Shown here: positions 17,349-25,720 of the stretch, piece after piece | How the letters are laid out: the number at the start of each line of letters is the position of its first letter | Position numbering within the stretch: position 1 is the stretch's first letter | Assembly (NCBI RefSeq): GCF_000420045.1 | Contig: NZ_ATUE01000007.1 | Coordinates: 141,202 to 173,201 of the forward strand | From: Perlucidibaca piscinae DSM 21586 | GTDB lineage: Bacteria; Pseudomonadota; Gammaproteobacteria; Pseudomonadales; Moraxellaceae | Direction: 5' to 3' | DNA length: 32,000 nt | The notes under the pieces: model-generated | The model's database searches: none | Seen by the model: the letters and a program-made list of their open reading frames with translations, nothing else | What the model was told of the DNA's origin: nothing | Program-made: the position numbers and the translations under genes

Positions 17349-18221
17349 ATGATGAGCACAGTGTCTATTTCTCATCGCAAGGTTGCTTTTGATGTTTCAG
17401 CTGTGCCGCGTCACTGGAATGGTGGTGATCCGGTGCTGACCCGGTTTTTTGATGCCCTGTCGGTGCATTTTCCTGAGGGAGAACGCTTTTTCATCCAGTC
17501 GGTGCGCCACTTTCAGGATCAGGTCACCGATTCGCGTCTGCGCCAGGATATTCGTCACTTCATCCGTCAGGAGGGTCAGCACGGTATCGTCCATGATCGC
17601 TTCAATGATGTTATGGCCGGGCAGGGGATCGATGTTGAGCGGGTGACCGCCAATCTGCGCCGCTTTATCCGGACCTCTCAGAAGTACCTTCCGAAAAAAT
17701 ACCAACTAGCGATGACCGCCGCGTTCGAGCATTTTACTGCCACCCTGGGTGAGGCCATGCTGAAAGAAGAAACAGACATGTTCCGCGAGGCAGATCCGGT
17801 TATGCGGGCGATGTTTCTCTGGCATGGTGTTGAGGAGGTTGAGCACAAGGCAGTGGCTTATGACCTTTATCAGACCGCAGCCGGAGGTGGATACCTGACG
17901 CGCGTTTCGGCACTGGTGGTGGCAATGCTGATGGTGCATGCAGTGGTGGCGCCGGTGTTTATCAATATGCTGCGTCTGGATGGTGCCTTGCGCAAACCCG
18001 GCGTTGTGCTGCGCGGATTGAATCGTTTGTACGGTCGCGGGGGCATCCTCACCGGCATGTTGCCGGAGTTTCTTGCCTGGTTCCGGCCCGGGTTTCATCC
18101 GTGGGAAACCGGCATGCCGGAGAAGGTCGCGGCCTGGCTGGAAGAGTATGGCGAACACGGTGATCCGATGCGAGCCTCTGCCGCAGTGTATGGCGATGCT
18201 GTCATTCAGGAAGCCGCTTGA
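17349..18221 (+). CDS. PF10118/COG3687-like protein, paralog 2
   Basis: SD AGGAGA. The motif spacing is E45-X29-E75-X2-H78 and E127-X35-E163-X2-H166. Its stop TGA is immediately followed by the next gene's ATG. Confidence 0.78.
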   Translation: MMSTVSISHRKVAFDVSAVPRHWNGGDPVLTRFFDALSVHFPEGERFFIQSVRHFQDQVTDSRLRQDIRHFIRQEGQHGIVHDRFNDVMAGQGIDVERVTANLRRFIRTSQKYLPKKYQLAMTAAFEHFTATLGEAMLKEETDMFREADPVMRAMFLWHGVEEVEHKAVAYDLYQTAAGGGYLTRVSALVVAMLMVHAVVAPVFINMLRLDGALRKPGVVLRGLNRLYGRGGILTGMLPEFLAWFRPGFHPWETGMPEKVAAWLEEYGEHGDPMRASAAVYGDAVIQEAA

Positions 18222-19241
18222 ATGGGCGTGGTTGAGCAATCCCCCGGTACTGTGGCGCTGCCTGCGCAGCGTCACAGTCACAGGCCGGGGCGGCATTGCG
18301 GCAGCTCAGCGATCAGGGATTTGCTGGAGTTTCATGGCCTGACCATGACTGAGGCATGTTGCTTTGGGCTTGGCGCCGGGCTTGGCATTACCTACGTTGA
18401 GGTGCCGGGGTCAGCGACCCCTTTTATTGTTCACGTTCGCTCCATGGGGTTCGAGGAGAAGGTATTCGCGACACTGGGTGTGCCGTTTGCCTGGGAAGCC
18501 TTTGCGGAAAAGGATCAGGCGAGCGATGCCCTGAATGAAGCATTGCTCGGCGGCCGTCCTGCGTTGCTGCTGACGGACATCTATCACTTGCCGTATTTCA
18601 ACAGCAGCACCCACTTTCCGGGGCATGCCATTGTTGCTTGGCAGCTTGATGCGCAGCGCAGTGAGGTGATGGTCAGTGACACCGAGCGGCCTGGCCTGAT
18701 GCCGGTGCCTGTTGACAAGCTTGCCGACTCCCGCTTCTCCACTTCAGCCCCCTTTGTGCATTACGGAAACATGTATGCCCCGCAGCACATTGATGCGGAA
18801 GTATCTCCATCGAGCATGCGACGGGCCATTGTCGATAATGCTGCCAGCCTGATGCGGGGCAATCGCCATAGTGGGCTGGCCGCACTGGATACTTGGATTG
18901 CTGAGTTGTCACGCTGGGCGGCTGACCCGAACTGGCGTTGGAATCTGCGATTTGCCTATCAGGTCATCGAGAAACGAGGTACTGGCGGCTCGGGCTTTCG
19001 CGCCATGTACATAGAATTCCTTGAAGAGGCGCGAGAGCAGTTGCCGCAAGTGAGACGCGGCGGGTTGCTCGAAAAGATGCGCGCTTCGGCTGCAGCATGG
19101 TCAGGGTTGGCTGCGGTACTCAAAGCTGGTTCGGAAGCGGATGCTTTTCCCTATTCCAAAATCGAAGCGGCAATACGTCAGGTTCGTATCCATGAGCAGT
19201 GCTATGCGGACAGTGCGCTCTCCGTGTTTCCTGAATCCTGA
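18222..19241 (+). CDS. BtrH_N / DUF4872-like protein (papain-like Cys-His acyltransferase/hydrolase fold)
   Basis: GRHCGSSAIRDLLEFHGL (candidate nucleophile Cys) and HFPGHAIVAWQLD (candidate His). The length and layout match BtrH-N plus DUF4872 proteins as I remember them. Confidence 0.6.
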   Translation: MGVVEQSPGTVALPAQRHSHRPGRHCGSSAIRDLLEFHGLTMTEACCFGLGAGLGITYVEVPGSATPFIVHVRSMGFEEKVFATLGVPFAWEAFAEKDQASDALNEALLGGRPALLLTDIYHLPYFNSSTHFPGHAIVAWQLDAQRSEVMVSDTERPGLMPVPVDKLADSRFSTSAPFVHYGNMYAPQHIDAEVSPSSMRRAIVDNAASLMRGNRHSGLAALDTWIAELSRWAADPNWRWNLRFAYQVIEKRGTGGSGFRAMYIEFLEEAREQLPQVRRGGLLEKMRASAAAWSGLAAVLKAGSEADAFPYSKIEAAIRQVRIHEQCYADSALSVFPES

Positions 19242-19291
19242 GCAGTGTGATGAGGCTGCATCAGCCCGTTGTCGTGAGCAGGCGGAGTCGT

Positions 19292-23007: not shown

Positions 23008-23016
23008 GGTAAGGCA

Positions 23017-24126
23017 ATGGATTTCAAGCTCTCCGAAAATACGACAATGATCGCGGATACCGCCAAGCGCTATCTCAAGGATCAGTACAGCTTTGATATT
23101 TATAGAAGTGTTCTCGCTCAGACTAATCACCTTGAATCATCGCGCTGGGAGATGATGCAGGAGCTTGGCTGGTTTGGTCTGCCATTTTCTGAAGCGGTCG
23201 GCGGCTATGGTGGTGATCTCATCGACGTTGCCATGATTGTCAGTGAAATGGGCGCGTCGCTTTGTCTTGATCCCTACGTCGATATGGTGGTGGCGCCGGG
23301 GAAGCTTCTTGAGTCTGTTGATTCGGAGCCGGCAAGACAATTGCTGGCTTCAATCATCGATGGAAAATCGGCAGTGGCCTGCGGATTCTATGATATCCAT
23401 AGTGGTTATGATGCGCTGAGCCCATCGTTGGTCATTGAAGGTAACAGGCTTTCCGGGCAGAAGAGTTTTGTCCCGGATGGCGGGTTTGCGCAAAGCGTTC
23501 TGGTGACGGCGCGCAGAGGGAAGGAGCTGGCGCTGGTGCATGTGCGCTTGTCAAACTGTGAAGTGGATAGTCACAGGGCGCTTGATGGCTCCCGAATGTC
23601 CAGCATTGTGTTCGATGATGTCATGCTCGATGATGACGCGATCATTGCTTGCGGCGCCGAGGCAGAATCGGCAGCGACTCAGACGCTTGCCTGGTTGCAG
23701 GCCCTTGATTGTGCGCGTATGTATGGTGCTGCCCGAGCACTCTATGAAAAAACACTTGATTATGCAAAGACGCGCAAGCAGTTTGCTGTCCACATTGGCA
23801 GTTTCCAGGTAATCCAGCACTATCTGGTCGATATGTTTATTGATCTCCAGCAGCTGGAATCAATGTTGCTGATGGTTTCAATCAAGGCTGCCAGCGGCGA
23901 TGCGGCAGAGCGCGACCGCGCCTGTGCTGCCGCCAAAGCCTACTTCGCTGACAAGGCTGTGCGAATCGCCCAGCAAGCCATCCAGATTCATGGTGGCGTC
24001 GGGGTTACCGAGGAGCTGGATGTTGGCCATTATTTTCGTTTGATTACACACTGCTCGCTTTCCCATGGGGCGGGCGACATCCAGGTCGAGCGGTTTGCCG
24101 CCTTGAGTGAGGCCGCACATGGATAA
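23017..24126 (+). CDS. acyl-CoA dehydrogenase family protein, probably a non-catalytic partner subunit
   Basis: It has ACAD-fold length and a C-terminal block ([11 protein letters not shown]). It lacks the (S/T)EPxxGSD FAD motif and has GAGDIQ where the catalytic Glu motif is expected. There is a 9-nt gap to the upstream ACAD, with SD GAGGTAAGG. Confidence 0.75.
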
Positions 24127-25720
24127 CCGTTACGACTTCATTGTTGTCGGTGCCGGTTCTGCCGGCTGTGTTCTGGCGAACCGATTGAGTGAATCGGGAA
24201 AGTTTTCGGTTTGTGTGGTCGAGGCCGGGCCCCATGATAATAGCGGTTTCGTTAATGTTCCCTTCGGCGTGATCGGCCTGATACGCGAAGGTAAAAGAAA
24301 CTGGGGTTACTATACTGCCCCCCAGAGTGAGCTCGGCAATCGACGTCTGTACTGGCCGAGAGGCAGGACGCTGGGTGGAAGCAGCTCGATCAATGCCATG
24401 GTCTATATCCGTGGCCAGCATCTCGATTATGACGATTGGCAGGATGCCGGAGCAGCCCACTGGGGCTGGCAGCAGGTCAGGCCGGTATTCAATGCTCATG
24501 AGAACAATGAGCAATACTTGCCCGACGACTGGCACGGTCGGGGTGGCCCCCTCAATGTCACCCGGGTCACTGACCCGAATCCCCTCAGCGCCATGTTTGT
24601 TCGCGCCGGCGTCGAGCTTGGCTATCCTGAGAACGACGACTTCAACGGCGCCTCACAGATGGGCTTCGGGCGTTTCCAGGTGACCCAGAAGGACGGGCGA
24701 CGCTGGAGTGCGGCGCGCGCATTTCTGGATCCGGCGAAAGCGCGGCCGAACCTGACGATCATGACCGATATGCTGGTGACCCGTGTGCTTGTCGACAACG
24801 GCCGAGCGCGCGGCATTGAATGCCTTGATGCCCAGGGGAAAACCGTCACACTGACCTGTCAGCGGGAGGTCGTGCTGTCAGGCGGTGCCATCAACTCACC
24901 CCAGTTACTGATGTTGTCCGGTATCGGCGACCGCCAGCACCTTGAGGAAATTGGCATCAGGTGTATCGTCGACTCCCCCCAGGTGGGCAGGAATCTCCAG
25001 GATCACCTGGATATGACGGTATCCATTCGTGACAAGAGCCGGCAGTCGATCGGCTTCTCGCCTTTTTTCCTGCCGAGGCTGATCAGGGCATTTTATGACT
25101 ATGTGCGGCATAAGCGCGGCTTCCTTGCCAGTAACGCGGCCGAAGCAGGTGCGTTTTTGAATGTTGGCGGTGGTGCGCGCCCTGATATTCAGCTGCATTT
25201 TATCCCCGCCTTCCTGCGTGATCATGGCCGGGAGCTGACACCGGGTTTCGGTTGTACTGTTCACGTTTGCCAGTTGCGGCCAAGGAGCCGGGGTTACATT
25301 TGCCTGCAGGATAATGACCCGCGTAGCGCGCCCTTGATTGACCCGCGCTATTTGTCAGACCAGGACGATATCAGGGTGCTACGTGAGGGGGTAAAACTGG
25401 TGCGTCGCCTGTTCCAGACTGATGCTTTTGCGCCCGCCTTTGGTGGCGAAGATCTGCCTCCGGCAACGGTAAAAACGGATGCGCAGCTGGACGAGGATAT
25501 TCGGCAGCGGTCAGAGACGATATACCATCCAGTGGGCACCTGTCGCATGGGTGAAGACCGTCTGGCGGTGGTTGATAGCCAGCTTCGAGTCAAAGGCATC
25601 AGTGGCTTGCGTGTTGCCGATGCATCGGTGATGCCATTGCTGATCAGCGGCAACACCAATGCGCCTTGTATGATGATCGGTGAGCGTGCTGCGGGCTTTA
25701 TGCTTGAGGAGAGCGCATGA
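24119..25720 (+). CDS. GMC-family FAD oxidoreductase (AlkJ/choline-dehydrogenase-like alcohol dehydrogenase)
   Basis: [43 protein letters not shown], and the C-terminal HPVGTCRMG active-site block. Its ATG overlaps the upstream stop by 8 nt. Confidence 0.9.

What the first reader, a model, noticed from the sequence alone, without database searches (positions are those of the whole stretch)
17349..25720. Tightly coupled 8-gene operon with an unusual gene mix and no pathway I can name
The genes are PF10118, a BtrH-like enzyme, two PaaI thioesterases, an acyl-CoA ligase, two ACADs and a GMC oxidoreductase. They are packed with a TGA-ATG abutment (18219-18224), two 8-nt overlaps (19770-19777 and 19-26 of 241xx, i.e. 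24119-24126) and a 9-nt gap (23008-23016). The operon ends at a stem-loop. Ligase, ACAD and a GMC alcohol dehydrogenase suggest activation and alpha,beta-dehydrogenation of an acid derived from an alcohol. The presence of a candidate diiron protein, a Cys-His acyl-transfer enzyme and two thioesterases is not standard beta-oxidation. A CoA-thioester oxygenation logic analogous to the phenylacetyl-CoA pathway is one possibility. That pathway combines a ligase, a diiron oxygenase acting on the CoA ester and the PaaI proofreading thioesterase.
Basis: inference. Interest (0 to 1): 0.7.

Follow-up and report, generated by a model that had tools for sequence, protein, structure and literature searches.

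The report
Conserved alkane-island operon, unknown accessory enzymes
This is a real, widely conserved eight-gene operon that sits inside a mobile alkane-degradation island of oil-degrading bacteria; half of it is ordinary fatty-alcohol/fatty-acid processing, while the other half is a four-gene module (a two-iron enzyme, a cysteine acyl-transfer enzyme and a two-part thioesterase) with no published function that I could find.

Summary
The window is Perlucidibaca piscinae (100% protein match).

The order is not chance. 44 of 57 eligible loci from Alcanivorax, Alloalcanivorax, Ketobacter, HdN1, Moraxellaceae and Oleiphilaceae keep g1-g8 colinear, with the same tight junctions.

- The operon lies between two clusters of BVMO, SDR, esterase and PF10118. 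One carries an AlmA-type BVMO.
- The region is a lower-GC island beside tRNA-Ser, with IS elements.
- In Acinetobacter plasmids and other Moraxellaceae, g1-g4 sit directly behind a CYP153 alkane hydroxylase operon.
- A distant BtrH + hotdog pair follows CYP153 in Rhodococcus plasmids.

So the pathway context can be named: long-chain alkane / aliphatic ketone degradation.

Family-level assignments:
- g8 is an AlkJ-like GMC alcohol dehydrogenase.
- g5 is a long-chain acyl-CoA ligase.
- g6 and g7 form one alpha2beta2 acyl-CoA dehydrogenase (ChsE4-5 / PimCD type).
- g1 is a ferritin- or HDO-like two-iron protein.
- g2 is a CcbD/CtaG/BtrH-fold Cys-His-Asp transacylase.
- g3 and g4 form a heterodimeric hotdog thioesterase, fused into one gene in Alcanivorax.

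The function of g1-g4 remains inferred. This is not a Paa system.

The parts
17269..17297 (+). Promoter-like site TAGACA-17-TAAAAT, 52 nt upstream of the g1 ATG. It lies at the 3' edge of an IS remnant.
   Evidence: 10 of 12 matches, the best site in the scanned region. The number of sites in the region is not above shuffles, so this is only a candidate.
17349..18221 (+). g1: PF10118 protein (290 aa), a candidate two-iron (ferritin-like / HDO-like) oxidase or oxygenase.
   Evidence: Pfam PF10118, 288 bits. Invariant E45, E75xxH78, E127, E162, E165 and H166; H159 and E163 are nearly invariant, so the H159xxxE163xxH166 motif rests partly on those two. These sit on four successive long helices of a pLDDT-91 model. 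All top Foldseek PDB hits are diiron proteins, but the matches are weak (E 0.13-1, TM <= 0.46). There is no sequence hit in the PDB. A hydrophobic helix spans 187-205 (KD 2.39).
18222..19241 (+). g2: BtrH-like Cys-His-Asp transacylase (339 aa).
   Evidence: BtrH_N + DUF4872. Invariant C26, H135 and D153. The model has pLDDT 91. Foldseek matches: AziU3/U2 2e-10, CcbD 9e-10, CtaG 8e-8. DarH equivalog scores 117 bits, below its cutoff of 300.
19310..19777 (+). g3: hotdog (4HBT) thioesterase subunit. Alternative starts are 19247 (GTG) and 19292 (ATG).
   Evidence: PF03061. Motif HRGxxxxxxD at residue 53. Nearest PDB entry is 3f1t, which is uncharacterised. Fused to g4 in 23 of 76 loci.
19770..20216 (+). 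g4: hotdog (4HBT) thioesterase subunit, overlapping g3 by 8 nt.
   Evidence: PF03061 and PF13622. Motif HGGxxxxxxE at residue 68. Nearest PDB entries are 4rmm and 3e29; PaaI 1psu reaches only E 0.009.
20255..21805 (+). g5: long-chain fatty-acid--CoA ligase (516 aa).
   Evidence: AMP-binding + AMP-binding_C. NCBIfam PRK06187 scores 519 bits, above its cutoff of 476.
21847..23007 (+). g6: catalytic (alpha) subunit of a heteromeric acyl-CoA dehydrogenase (386 aa from the GTG start).
   Evidence: All three ACAD domains are present. PimC_large scores 410 bits, below its cutoff of 624. Best PDB hit is 4x28 chain A, 187 bits. The 'HER' motif of g6 (E244) aligns with residue 247 of that chain. That this residue is the ChsE4 catalytic base is from my own knowledge.
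23017..24126 (+). g7: non-catalytic (beta) subunit of the same acyl-CoA dehydrogenase (369 aa).
   Evidence: Weak N and middle domains. PimD_small scores 185 bits, below its cutoff of 653. Best PDB hit is Tcur3481 (6wy8_A); 4x28_D is also hit. By my reading the position matching g6 E244 falls in 'LDCARM' and carries no Glu. The 9-nt gap to g6 is conserved.
24119..25720 (+). g8: GMC flavoprotein alcohol dehydrogenase (533 aa), AlkJ-like by family and context.
   Evidence: GMC_oxred_N and GMC_oxred_C. PRK02106 scores 589 bits, just below its cutoff of 605. A 47%-identical paralogue sits next to CYP153 in L005, L016, L030 and L032.
25720..25757 (.). GC-rich hairpin between the convergent stops of g8 and d1. 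Candidate bidirectional terminator.
   Evidence: -28.8 kcal/mol, but z-score -0.9 and no T tract.
25763..26218 (-). d1: third hotdog thioesterase, last gene of the convergent AlmA-type cluster.
   Evidence: PF03061. TIGR00369 scores 61 bits, above its cutoff. Motif HGGxxxxxxD. Conserved position in many loci.
26273..27145 (-). d2: second PF10118 paralogue (34% identical to g1).
   Evidence: The d2-d3-d4 triad is conserved in about 45 loci.
27172..28029 (-). d3: short-chain dehydrogenase/reductase.
28059..29561 (-). d4: AlmA-type (EthA-like) type I Baeyer-Villiger monooxygenase.
   Evidence: FMO-like. Both BVMO fingerprints are present, FRGDVIHPQHWP and GGTWDLFRYPGIRSD. It is 65% identical to AGW21778.1, deposited as 'flavin-binding monooxygenase AlmA'.
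29558..30538 (-). d5: alpha/beta-hydrolase (esterase candidate).
30723..31775 (-). AraC-family regulator with an Arabinose_bd domain. It is the same type that sits divergent from CYP153 / g1 in relatives.
   Evidence: Orthologues of 53-79% identity lie next to P450-GMC-g1 or g1-g4 in L005, L016, L030, L032 and L068-L078.
11913..16237 (-). Upstream divergent cluster: u1 PF10118 (15275-16237), u2 SDR (14434-15330), u3 Abhydrolase_3 esterase (13451-14509), u4 BVMO (11913-13574).
   Evidence: The u1-u2-u3 set is also upstream of g1 in Ketobacter loci L002-L004.
16863..17294 (+). IS remnant (partial DDE_Tnp_1 ORF) between the divergent u cluster and g1.

Best explanation
The eight genes are one catabolic operon of a horizontally mobile alkane / aliphatic-ketone degradation island.

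**Lower pathway (family-level assignment; order inferred)**
- The flanking AlmA/Sad-type clusters (SDR, then BVMO, then esterase), or a CYP153 hydroxylase, release a long-chain primary alcohol.
- The GMC dehydrogenase g8, like AlkJ, oxidises that alcohol.
- The ligase g5 activates the resulting acid to its CoA ester.
- g6 and g7 form a single alpha2beta2 acyl-CoA dehydrogenase. g6 carries the catalytic Glu and g7 is the non-catalytic partner. This enzyme makes the 2-enoyl-CoA for beta-oxidation.
- The alpha2beta2 type suggests bulky, branched, very long or dicarboxylic acyl chains.

**Accessory module g1-g4 (inferred, about 0.25 on its own)**
- g1-g4 are a conserved module that works at the thioester level.
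- My preferred mechanism is that the two-iron protein g1 oxidises (hydroxylates) the alkyl chain of a thioester-bound or free long-chain substrate.
- That would supply the secondary alcohol that the SDR/BVMO/esterase sets need.
- g2 would shuttle or release acyl groups through an acyl-S-Cys intermediate.
- The g3/g4 hotdog heterodimer would hydrolyse dead-end or surplus acyl-CoA.
For: **Operon and its conservation**
- Junctions.
- 44 of 57 loci are colinear, with the same overlaps.

**Link to alkane oxidation**
- Two BVMO-SDR-esterase-PF10118 clusters flank the operon.
- d4 is 65% identical to a protein deposited as AlmA.
- AlmA and the sad cluster are reported to act as BVMO, or BVMO plus esterases, in sub-terminal oxidation (references cited in PMC12753306).
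- g1-g4 follow Fdx-CYP153-FdR in Acinetobacter plasmids (CYP153A identity).
- g1-g4 follow P450-GMC in Moraxellaceae MAGs.
- A 29%-identical BtrH plus a PaaI-type hotdog follow a 67%-identical CYP153 in Rhodococcus plasmids.
- In locus L092 the order is esterase, PF10118, TetR, BVMO, ligase, ACAD-alpha, ACAD-beta.

**Enzyme families**
- General assignments.
- ACAD alpha/beta assignment.
- g3-g4 fusion in 23 of 76 loci.
- g2 fold and triad.
- g1 motifs and fold.

**Thioester logic**
- Three hotdog thioesterases are present.
- A TetR with a YsiA-like C-terminal domain sits next to PF10118 in four lineages. YsiA/FadR of Bacillus binds acyl-CoA; that point is from my own knowledge.

**Mobility**
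- tRNA-Ser, IS elements and a GC drop in the window.
- Tn3 and IS flanks in HdN1 and Acinetobacter.
Against: - No expression or biochemical data exist for any of the eight proteins. All functions are family-level inferences.
- No aldehyde dehydrogenase, ferredoxin or reductase was found among the window ORFs I scanned. The electron supply for g1 and the aldehyde-to-acid step are therefore unexplained.
- The structural matches of g1 to diiron proteins are weak (E >= 0.13). Metal binding is untested.
- Characterised members of the BtrH fold (CcbD, CtaG) take acyl groups from carrier proteins. There is no room for a carrier-protein gene in the operon.
- Thioesterases in a catabolic operon that also has a ligase look futile unless they edit.
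- Distant PF10118 and BtrH homologues occur alone, without this context.
Confidence: 0.55

Rival explanations
1. The ligase makes an acyl-CoA. PF10118 is a diiron oxygenase that acts on that CoA ester, as PaaABCE or BoxB do. The hotdog thioesterases proofread, as PaaI does. This overlaps with my preferred reading of g1-g4, but it places all the chemistry on the CoA ester and ignores the BVMO and CYP153 context.
For: - Diiron-type motifs and fold in g1.
- Ligase plus three hotdog thioesterases.
- An acyl-CoA-type TetR next to PF10118 in several lineages.
- Thioesterase d1 closes the AlmA-type operon, which suggests CoA esters there too.
Against: - g1 is not in the PaaA/PaaC family. PF10118 is its only Pfam hit.
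- There is no PaaI equivalog and no reductase.
- In Acinetobacter the module occurs with CYP153 and without any ligase.
- In Paraperlucidibaca the thioesterases are missing while g1, g2 and the ligase stay.
Confidence: 0.25
2. PF10118 proteins are the missing first enzyme of sub-terminal oxidation. On this view they are O2-dependent two-iron hydroxylases that make the secondary alcohol from a long-chain alkane. SDR, BVMO and esterase then process it. g1 would be the copy that serves the g operon.
For: - PF10118 is the only non-assigned enzyme that recurs with the SDR-BVMO(-esterase) set. This is seen in two clusters in the window, about 45 related loci and L092.
- It sits beside Fdx-CYP153-FdR in Acinetobacter, where a ferredoxin could serve it.
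- It has a hydrophobic helix.
- R2lox, ADO and desaturase-like folds are among its best structural matches.
Against: - There is no dedicated reductase.
- There is no experimental link.
- It also occurs alone next to an AraC gene, or in unrelated contexts.
- Hydroxylating unactivated alkanes is demanding chemistry for a small single-subunit protein.
Confidence: 0.2
3. g2 plus the thioesterases replace the missing aldehyde dehydrogenase. The fatty aldehyde made by the alcohol dehydrogenase is captured as a thiohemiacetal, on a thiol cofactor or on the enzyme's Cys. It is then oxidised to a thioester and hydrolysed by the hotdog enzymes. This would be analogous to glutathione- or mycothiol-dependent formaldehyde oxidation.
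For: - No aldehyde dehydrogenase is present in any of the clusters examined.
- In each cluster an alcohol dehydrogenase (GMC, SDR or NDMA-ADH) lies upstream of BtrH, directly adjacent only in Rhodococcus L086 and Mycobacterium L088. A hotdog thioesterase follows BtrH in Proteobacteria and Rhodococcus, and a hotdog gene lies nearby in the Mycobacterium plasmid.
Against: - There is no precedent for this chemistry in the BtrH fold.
- Aldehyde dehydrogenases are plentiful elsewhere in such genomes.
- The model gives PF10118 no role.
Confidence: 0.08
4. The module is biosynthetic. g2 would transfer alkane-derived acyl groups from CoA onto an amine or hydroxyl acceptor. The product would be a surfactant, lipoamino acid or wax-like ester that helps alkane uptake or detoxifies alkanols.
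For: - The named members of the BtrH fold matched here (CcbD, CtaG) and DarH are biosynthetic acyltransferases.
- Alkane degraders are known to make such lipids (my own knowledge).
- A WS/DGAT gene is in the window.
Against: - The operon partners (ACAD, GMC, ligase) and neighbours (BVMO, esterase) are catabolic.
- No acceptor-synthesis or export genes are conserved with it.
- The WS/DGAT gene lies outside the island.
Confidence: 0.07
5. The operon degrades dicarboxylic, isoprenoid or steroid-like acids rather than alkane products. It would be a Pim-like or Chs-like side-chain pathway.
For: g6/g7 are closest to PimC/PimD and to ChsE4-ChsE5 / Tcur3483-3481.
Against: - The scores are well below the Pim equivalog cutoffs.
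- No thiolase, hydratase or hydroxyacyl-CoA dehydrogenase genes are in the operon.
- The hosts are obligate or typical alkane degraders.
- This rival is compatible with the best explanation if BVMO or CYP153 products are dicarboxylic or branched.
Confidence: 0.1

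Closest known systems
alk-type terminal alkane oxidation lower pathway (AlkJ alcohol dehydrogenase, AlkH aldehyde dehydrogenase, AlkK acyl-CoA synthetase) and CYP153 operons (AraC, Fdx, P450, AlkJ2, FdR)
   Same: - It has a GMC alcohol dehydrogenase and an acyl-CoA ligase in one operon.
- The same AraC type is present.
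- Relatives of g1-g4 sit directly downstream of CYP153 operons.
   Different: - No alkane hydroxylase and no aldehyde dehydrogenase were found among the window ORFs scanned.
- The alk and CYP153 descriptions that I could read mention no PF10118, BtrH-like or hotdog genes.
Sad / AlmA sub-terminal oxidation clusters (secondary alcohol dehydrogenase, BVMO, esterases)
   Same: The flanking u and d clusters have exactly this enzyme set, and d4 is AlmA-type (PMC12753306).
   Different: - The eight-gene operon itself holds none of these enzymes.
- The PF10118 gene that accompanies SDR-BVMO here is not mentioned in the summaries of those clusters that I could read. The primary papers were not held.
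alpha2beta2 heterotetrameric acyl-CoA dehydrogenases (M. tuberculosis ChsE4-ChsE5 = FadE26-FadE27; R. palustris PimC-PimD)
   Same: - Two adjacent ACAD genes are present.
- Only g6 keeps a Glu aligned with residue 247 of 4x28 chain A.
- The best database hits for each subunit are the matching subunits of the known enzymes.
   Different: - Scores fall below the equivalog cutoffs.
- The genomic context is different: alkane island, not steroid or pimelate genes.
BtrH / CcbD / CtaG / DarH papain-like transacylases
   Same: - The two-domain fold matches.
- The Cys-His-Asp triad has similar spacing: C26/H135/D153 here, against C11/H128/D144 in CtaG.
   Different: - There is no carrier protein, NRPS or natural-product genes nearby.
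- The context is catabolic.
- Donor and acceptor are unknown.
Phenylacetyl-CoA pathway (PaaK, PaaABCDE, PaaI)
   Same: Only the logic is shared: a ligase, a possible diiron oxygenase and a hotdog thioesterase in one locus.
   Different: There is no homology of g1 to PaaA/PaaC, no PaaE, no PaaG/PaaZ/PaaJ and no PaaI equivalog.
M. tuberculosis mymA operon (VirS AraC regulator, BVMO, LipR esterase, SDR, ADH, WS/DGAT, FadD13). This comparison is from my own knowledge and was not tested here.
   Same: An AraC-controlled set of BVMO, esterase, SDR and acyl-CoA ligase acting on long-chain lipids.
   Different: It has no PF10118, BtrH-like, hotdog, heteromeric ACAD or GMC genes.

Membership tests
Phenylacetyl-CoA (Paa) oxygenation system | PaaA/PaaC-family diiron oxygenase subunits (PF05138) | tested here: not met
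   g1 hits only PF10118 in Pfam.
Phenylacetyl-CoA (Paa) oxygenation system | PaaI thioesterase (equivalog TIGR02286) | tested here: not met
   g3 and g4 give no hit. d1 scores 35.7 bits against a cutoff of 118.9. E. coli PaaI 1psu reaches only E 0.009 against g4.
Phenylacetyl-CoA (Paa) oxygenation system | Dedicated reductase (PaaE) and ring-processing enzymes | tested here: not met
   None was found among the window ORFs scanned.
alk / CYP153 terminal alkane oxidation operon | Alkane hydroxylase (AlkB or CYP153) in the locus | tested here: not met
   No AlkB or CYP153 was found among the window ORFs scanned. CYP153 is adjacent to g1-g4 only in relatives.
alk / CYP153 terminal alkane oxidation operon | GMC alcohol dehydrogenase (AlkJ type) | tested here: inconclusive
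   g8 scores 589 bits in PRK02106, just below the cutoff of 605. No AlkJ reference sequence was available for comparison.
alk / CYP153 terminal alkane oxidation operon | Aldehyde dehydrogenase (AlkH) | tested here: not met
   No aldehyde dehydrogenase family was found in the window or in the related clusters examined.
alk / CYP153 terminal alkane oxidation operon | Acyl-CoA synthetase (AlkK type) | tested here: met
   g5 scores 519 bits in PRK06187, above the cutoff of 476.
Sad / AlmA sub-terminal oxidation cluster (applies to the flanks) | Type I BVMO with both fingerprint motifs | tested here: met
   d4 has FRGDVIHPQHWP and GGTWDLFRYPGIRSD. u4 has the second motif and a variant of the first.
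Sad / AlmA sub-terminal oxidation cluster (applies to the flanks) | Esterase and secondary-alcohol dehydrogenase in the same cluster | tested here: met
   u2 SDR + u3 Abhydrolase_3; d3 SDR + d5 Abhydrolase_1. Substrates were not tested.
alpha2beta2 acyl-CoA dehydrogenase (ChsE4-5 / PimCD type) | Two adjacent ACAD genes, of which only one has the catalytic Glu | tested here: met
   g6 E244 aligns with residue 247 of 4x28 chain A. By my reading g7 has no Glu at the matching position, in 'LDCARM'. The 8-9 nt gap is conserved.
alpha2beta2 acyl-CoA dehydrogenase (ChsE4-5 / PimCD type) | Heterotetramer with one FAD per alpha-beta pair | not testable with these tools
   Needs purification, native mass and FAD stoichiometry.
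PimCD pimeloyl-CoA dehydrogenase (equivalogs TIGR03204 / TIGR03203) | Score above the equivalog cutoff | tested here: not met
   410 against 624 bits, and 185 against 653 bits.
BtrH / CcbD / CtaG transacylases | Two-domain papain-like fold with a Cys-His-Asp triad | tested here: met
   Foldseek E values from 2e-10 to 1e-6, TM about 0.6. C26, H135 and D153 are invariant in 22 sequences.
BtrH / CcbD / CtaG transacylases | Acyl donor bound to a carrier protein encoded nearby | tested here: not met
   The largest intergenic gap in g1-g8 is 68 nt (with the 19310 start for g3), so there is no room for a carrier-protein gene.
Ferritin-like / HDO two-iron oxidases | Carboxylate and histidine ligand motifs on a four-helix core | tested here: met
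   E45; E75xxH78; E127; H159xxxE163xxH166. These are invariant or nearly invariant in 24 sequences and lie on helices 28-53, 62-91, 116-138 and 150-165.
Ferritin-like / HDO two-iron oxidases | Significant structural or sequence similarity to a solved member | tested here: inconclusive
   Nearly all top Foldseek hits are diiron proteins (VlmB, R2, R2lox, CmlI, AurF, ADO, sMMO). However E >= 0.13 and TM <= 0.46. There are no HMM hits to the PDB.
Ferritin-like / HDO two-iron oxidases | Binds two Fe (or Mn/Fe) and activates O2 | not testable with these tools
   Needs metal analysis and spectroscopy.

The most novel reading that the evidence does not exclude
PF10118 proteins, with their papain-like transacylase and hotdog partners, form a previously unrecognised enzyme module of aerobic alkane degradation. 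The module is seen in Proteobacteria and in Actinobacteria. Its two-iron protein would be the long-sought enzyme that makes the secondary alcohol (or an equivalent in-chain oxidation) feeding AlmA/Sad-type BVMOs. This would explain how very long alkanes are attacked sub-terminally, given that AlmA is now reported to be a BVMO rather than a hydroxylase.
Probability: 0.2. Interest if true: 0.85.

Novelty: new variant of a known kind. Interest (0 to 1): 0.6.

Why it matters
Long-chain alkane degradation by Alcanivorax, Acinetobacter and their relatives drives oil-spill clean-up. It also accounts for the 'polyethylene degradation' signals that turn out to be alkanes and 2-ketones (PMC12753306).

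AlmA is now reported to be a Baeyer-Villiger enzyme (reference cited in PMC12753306). As far as I know, the enzyme that makes the secondary alcohol for long chains has not been identified.

This operon and its flanks show a family with no assigned function (PF10118) riding with every SDR-BVMO set. A second unassigned pair (BtrH-like + hotdog) rides with CYP153 in two phyla, often on plasmids and transposons.

That gives concrete, testable candidate genes for missing steps. It also yields a mobile cassette worth tracking in clinical Acinetobacter plasmids.

Tried and rejected
**Chance juxtaposition: rejected**
- The order is conserved.

**Membership of the Paa pathway: rejected**
-.

**Membership of the Pim pathway: rejected**
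- Scores are below the cutoffs, and there are no thiolase, hydratase or HADH genes.

**Literature searches that found nothing on function**
- Searches for PF10118, COG3687, DUF4872, IPR016516, UCP07580, Metal_hydrol and BtrH_N gave nothing relevant.
- 'Butirosin biosynthesis' + alkane gave nothing relevant.
- The primary AlmA-BVMO paper was not held under its PMC id, and the A. dieselolei network paper was not held under its DOI. The sad-cluster paper was not looked up; it is known only from citations.

**The A. venetianus RAG-1 report**
- A 'metal-dependent hydrolase' is reported as induced 143-fold on dodecane in RAG-1 (PMC5074533).
- I could not tie it to PF10118, so I do not use it as evidence.

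**Sequence searches of g1 and g2 against the PDB**
- These found nothing.

**Distant PF10118 and BtrH homologues**
- The Myxococcales, Spirochaetota and L093 homologues sit alone, so they gave no functional hint.

**Promoter and terminator scans**
- Counts were not above shuffles.
- The hairpin energy is not unusual for its composition.

Full report
**1. The observation**

The window has eight co-directional + strand ORFs between 17349 and 25720.
- PF10118
- BtrH_N + DUF4872
- two 4HBT hotdog proteins
- an AMP-binding ligase
- two ACAD proteins
- a GMC oxidoreductase

The junctions are exactly as stated:
- TGA-ATG abutment at 18219-18224
- 8-nt overlaps at 19770-19777 and 24119-24126
- a 9-nt gap at 23008-23016 carrying a Shine-Dalgarno-like GGTAAGG

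Two starts need adjusting:
- g6 most likely begins at GTG 21847. That gives 386 aa, the length called in relatives.
- g3 most likely begins at ATG 19310 or 19292.

A hairpin at 25720-25757 fills the 42-nt space between the convergent stop codons of g8 and the next gene. It has no T tract and is not unusually stable for its composition. The best promoter-like site of the region lies 52 nt upstream of g1.

**2. Is it more than chance?**

The BtrH-like protein is 100% identical to a Perlucidibaca piscinae protein. A genome scan with an alignment of its homologues returned 80 loci.

tblastn with all window proteins gave these results:
- g1-g8 are colinear within 9.5 kb in 44 of the 57 loci that have enough flank.
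- The hosts include Alcanivorax, Alloalcanivorax, Ketobacter, strain HdN1, many Moraxellaceae MAGs and Oleiphilaceae.
- The tight junctions recur: g1-g2 -1/0/-4 nt, g6-g7 8-9 nt, g7-g8 -8/-14/-4 nt.

These 80 loci are the best-scoring of 297 matches, so the sample leans towards close relatives.

**3.

The window holds three PF10118 genes, not one. They are 33-34% identical to each other.
- Upstream, on the minus strand: PF10118, SDR, Abhydrolase_3 esterase, BVMO (11913-16237).
- Downstream, convergent with g8: Abhydrolase_1, BVMO, SDR, PF10118 and a third hotdog thioesterase (25763-30538), followed by an AraC regulator.

The downstream BVMO carries both type I BVMO fingerprints. It is 65% identical to a protein deposited as 'flavin-binding monooxygenase AlmA'. 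The A. borkumensis proteomics paper equates that protein with its AlmA homologue ABO_0282 (PMC6850023).

Papers cited in PMC12753306 report that AlmA is a BVMO. They also report that the sad cluster (BVMO plus esterases) carries out sub-terminal oxidation and 2-ketone degradation.

The convergent triad PF10118-SDR-BVMO is conserved next to g8 in about 45 loci.

The whole region starts just after a tRNA-Ser gene (7515-7605) and contains IS elements. Its GC content is 0.52-0.60, against 0.63-0.72 before it. It therefore looks like an acquired island.

Flanks differ between genomes, which marks the unit as portable:
- LptFG in Alloalcanivorax
- Tn3 and IS elements in HdN1
- IS6 and Tn3 in Acinetobacter

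**4. The core module and its link to alkane hydroxylases**

In Acinetobacter only g1-g4 are present. The gene order there is:
- a divergent AraC gene
- then 2Fe-2S ferredoxin, P450, ferredoxin reductase, an IS5 fragment, PF10118, TetR, BtrH-like, hotdog, hotdog
- the whole set is bracketed by transposases

The P450 is a CYP153A: 735 bits to 5fyf, and it also hits CYP153A7. Forty-five Acinetobacter plasmids carry the BtrH-like gene.

In other Moraxellaceae the order is AraC, P450, GMC, g1, g2 and onward.

In two Rhodococcus plasmids the order is as follows:
- a 67%-identical CYP153 operon (AraC, Fdx, P450, FdR)
- then a transglutaminase-like protein and, in one plasmid, an SDR
- then a 29%-identical BtrH-like protein and a PaaI-type hotdog

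A Mycobacterium plasmid groups these genes:
- a P450 and an ACAD
- an R2-like ligand-binding oxidase
- an NDMA-dependent alcohol dehydrogenase
- a BtrH-like protein and a transglutaminase-like protein
- a PF10118 protein (35% identical to g1)
- a TetR and a hotdog

Two further contexts:
- A Polyangiales locus has PF10118, TetR, hotdog and a transglutaminase-core protein.
- A metagenomic locus has esterase, PF10118, TetR, BVMO, ligase, ACAD-alpha and ACAD-beta.

The recurring set is therefore a two-iron protein, a papain-like Cys enzyme, a hotdog thioesterase and a TetR. It always sits beside an alkane or ketone oxygenase and an alcohol dehydrogenase. No cluster examined contains an aldehyde dehydrogenase.

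More distant homologues stand alone.

**5. The individual proteins**

*g8* falls in the choline-dehydrogenase subfamily of GMC enzymes, just under the cutoff. By my own knowledge AlkJ belongs to the GMC family.

*g5* passes the cutoff of a long-chain fatty-acid--CoA ligase subfamily.

*g6 and g7*
- They best match PimC and PimD, but below cutoff.
- Among solved structures, g6 best matches 4x28 chain A and Tcur3483; g7 best matches Tcur3481 and also hits 4x28 chain D.
- By my own knowledge, 4x28 is the ChsE4-ChsE5 alpha2beta2 enzyme.
- g6 keeps a Glu (E244, in 'THER') aligned with residue 247 of 4x28 chain A. From memory, that residue is the catalytic base.
- By my reading of its sequence, g7 has 'LDCARM' at the matching position.
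- The pair is therefore one heteromeric enzyme.

*g3 and g4*
- They carry the H-G/R-G ... D/E helix motif of PaaI/YbdB-type thioesterases.
- They are fused into one 281-aa double hotdog in 23 of 76 loci. That argues for a heterodimer.
- They are not PaaI orthologues.

*g2*
- The model has pLDDT 91.
- It matches AziU3/U2, CcbD and CtaG at E values from 1e-10 to 1e-7.
- C26, H135 and D153 are invariant.
- Their spacing parallels the C11, H128 and D144 variants listed for CtaG.

*g1*
- The model has pLDDT 91 and is all-helical.
- Invariant E45, E75xxH78 and E127, together with H159xxxE163xxH166 (H159 and E163 nearly invariant), lie on four successive long helices.
- Its top structural neighbours are almost all two-iron proteins: VlmB, R2, R2lox, CmlI, AurF, ADO and sMMO.
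- Those matches are weak, and there are no sequence hits to the PDB.
- The motif set fits both the classical ferritin-like pattern and the heme-oxygenase-like diiron (HDO) pattern.

**6. How it most likely works**

Shown:
- a conserved, tightly coupled operon
- the family and fold of each product
- physical linkage to AlmA/Sad-type clusters and to CYP153

Inferred lower pathway:
- The esterases (from BVMO-made esters) or CYP153 release a primary alcohol.
- g8 oxidises that alcohol.
- g5 activates the resulting acid.
- The g6/g7 enzyme dehydrogenates the CoA ester. Its relatives handle bulky, branched or dicarboxylic chains.

More speculative, about 0.25:
- g1 hydroxylates or otherwise oxidises the alkyl chain. 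This would supply the substrate for the SDR/BVMO/esterase sets.
- g2 handles acyl groups through an acyl-S-Cys intermediate.
- g3/g4 clear unproductive CoA esters.

Open problems:
- the electron source for g1
- the missing aldehyde dehydrogenase
- the absence of a carrier protein for g2

Rivals are listed separately:
- free-alkane sub-terminal hydroxylase
- thiol-dependent aldehyde oxidation
- a biosynthetic acyl transfer
- a dicarboxylate or isoprenoid pathway

**7. Comparison with what is known, and novelty**

The flanks are ordinary members of the AlmA/Sad kind. g5-g8 resemble an alk-type lower pathway with a Chs/Pim-type dehydrogenase. The operon is not a Paa system.

I found no published function for PF10118, or for this BtrH-like subfamily, in the library available. 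The alkane papers I could read do not mention them.

I rate the finding a new variant of a known kind: an alkane-catabolic operon with a conserved module of unassigned enzymes. Interest is 0.6.

The most novel reading not excluded is that PF10118 is the missing in-chain or sub-terminal oxidising enzyme. I put that at about 0.2.

Noticed in passing
window 7515-7605, 8174-10059, 16863-17294; GC profile 1-32000: A tRNA-Ser(GGA) gene lies immediately before two IS elements (an rve-type ORF at 8174-8926 and an IS110-type ORF at 8956-10059). GC falls from 0.63-0.72 to 0.52-0.60 at this point. The whole alkane region therefore looks like a genomic island inserted beside the tRNA gene. A partial DDE transposase ORF separates the divergent u cluster from g1.
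   Followed up: partly
window 15275-16237 (-), 17349-18221 (+), 26273-27145 (-): There are three PF10118 paralogues within 12 kb, only 33-34% identical to each other. Each has a different partner set: SDR + esterase + BVMO; BtrH + hotdogs; SDR + BVMO + hotdog. All metal-ligand positions are conserved in all three.
   Followed up: yes
L085 11112-11957 and 22 other loci (for example L034-L051): In Alcanivorax and relatives g3 and g4 are fused into a single 281-aa double-hotdog gene. The operon has seven genes there.
   Followed up: yes
L084 (A. baumannii plasmid NZ_CP040051.1, 70630-79437) and 44 other Acinetobacter plasmids: Large plasmids of clinical A. baumannii carry a composite-transposon-like cassette. 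Its order is AraC, ferredoxin, CYP153A, ferredoxin reductase, PF10118, TetR, BtrH-like and two hotdog thioesterases, flanked by IS6 and Tn3 elements.
   Followed up: partly
L086 (R. qingshengii pN9T4-1) and L087 (Rhodococcus sp. ZPP pRZP4): In Rhodococcus plasmids the CYP153 operon is followed by a transglutaminase-like protein, an SDR in one case, a distant BtrH-like protein and a PaaI-type hotdog. The BtrH + hotdog pairing with CYP153 therefore occurs in two phyla.
   Followed up: partly
L088 and L090 (Mycobacterium sp. 20KCMC460 plasmid, 372723-380354 and 1-9100): An R2-like ligand-binding oxidase gene lies next to a cluster with P450, ACAD, NDMA-dependent alcohol dehydrogenase, BtrH-like, transglutaminase-like, PF10118, TetR, alpha/beta hydrolase and hotdog genes. 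As far as I know the physiological role of R2lox is unknown. This neighbourhood may bear on its function.
   Followed up: no
L078 9375-10013; L004 3630-4298; L091 6876-7571; L092 6966-7571: A TetR regulator with TetR_C_24 (and, where I scanned it, in L078 and L004, a YsiA-like C-terminal domain) recurs directly next to PF10118 in Acinetobacter, Ketobacter, a Polyangiales genome and a metagenomic contig. It is absent from the window.
   Followed up: partly
window 4004-5365 (-), 5447-7354 (-), 1785-3641 (+): Outside the island, in the high-GC part of the window, lie a WS/DGAT wax-ester synthase, a Kup potassium transporter and an ABC exporter. The wax-ester synthase fits a lipid-storing, alkane-using lifestyle but is not part of the operon.
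   Followed up: no
window 10594-11361 (-); L079 19061-19813: A MerR-family regulator lies next to the upstream BVMO cluster. A 68%-identical copy lies next to a BVMO in locus L079, so it may regulate that cluster.
   Followed up: no
window 17706-18296 (-), 21682-22644 (-), 24044-24535 (-): Long antisense ORFs of 163-320 aa overlap g1/g2, g5/g6 and g7/g8. I did not scan them against Pfam and judge them spurious products of composition.
   Followed up: no
L032 and L033 (Paraperlucidibaca), L079, L066: There are variant architectures. In Paraperlucidibaca g1-g2 are followed directly by ligase and ACAD-alpha/beta, with no g3/g4. L079 has g8-g7-g6 inverted upstream of g1-g4, followed by d1, an esterase and d2. 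L066 lacks g1 next to g2.
   Followed up: partly
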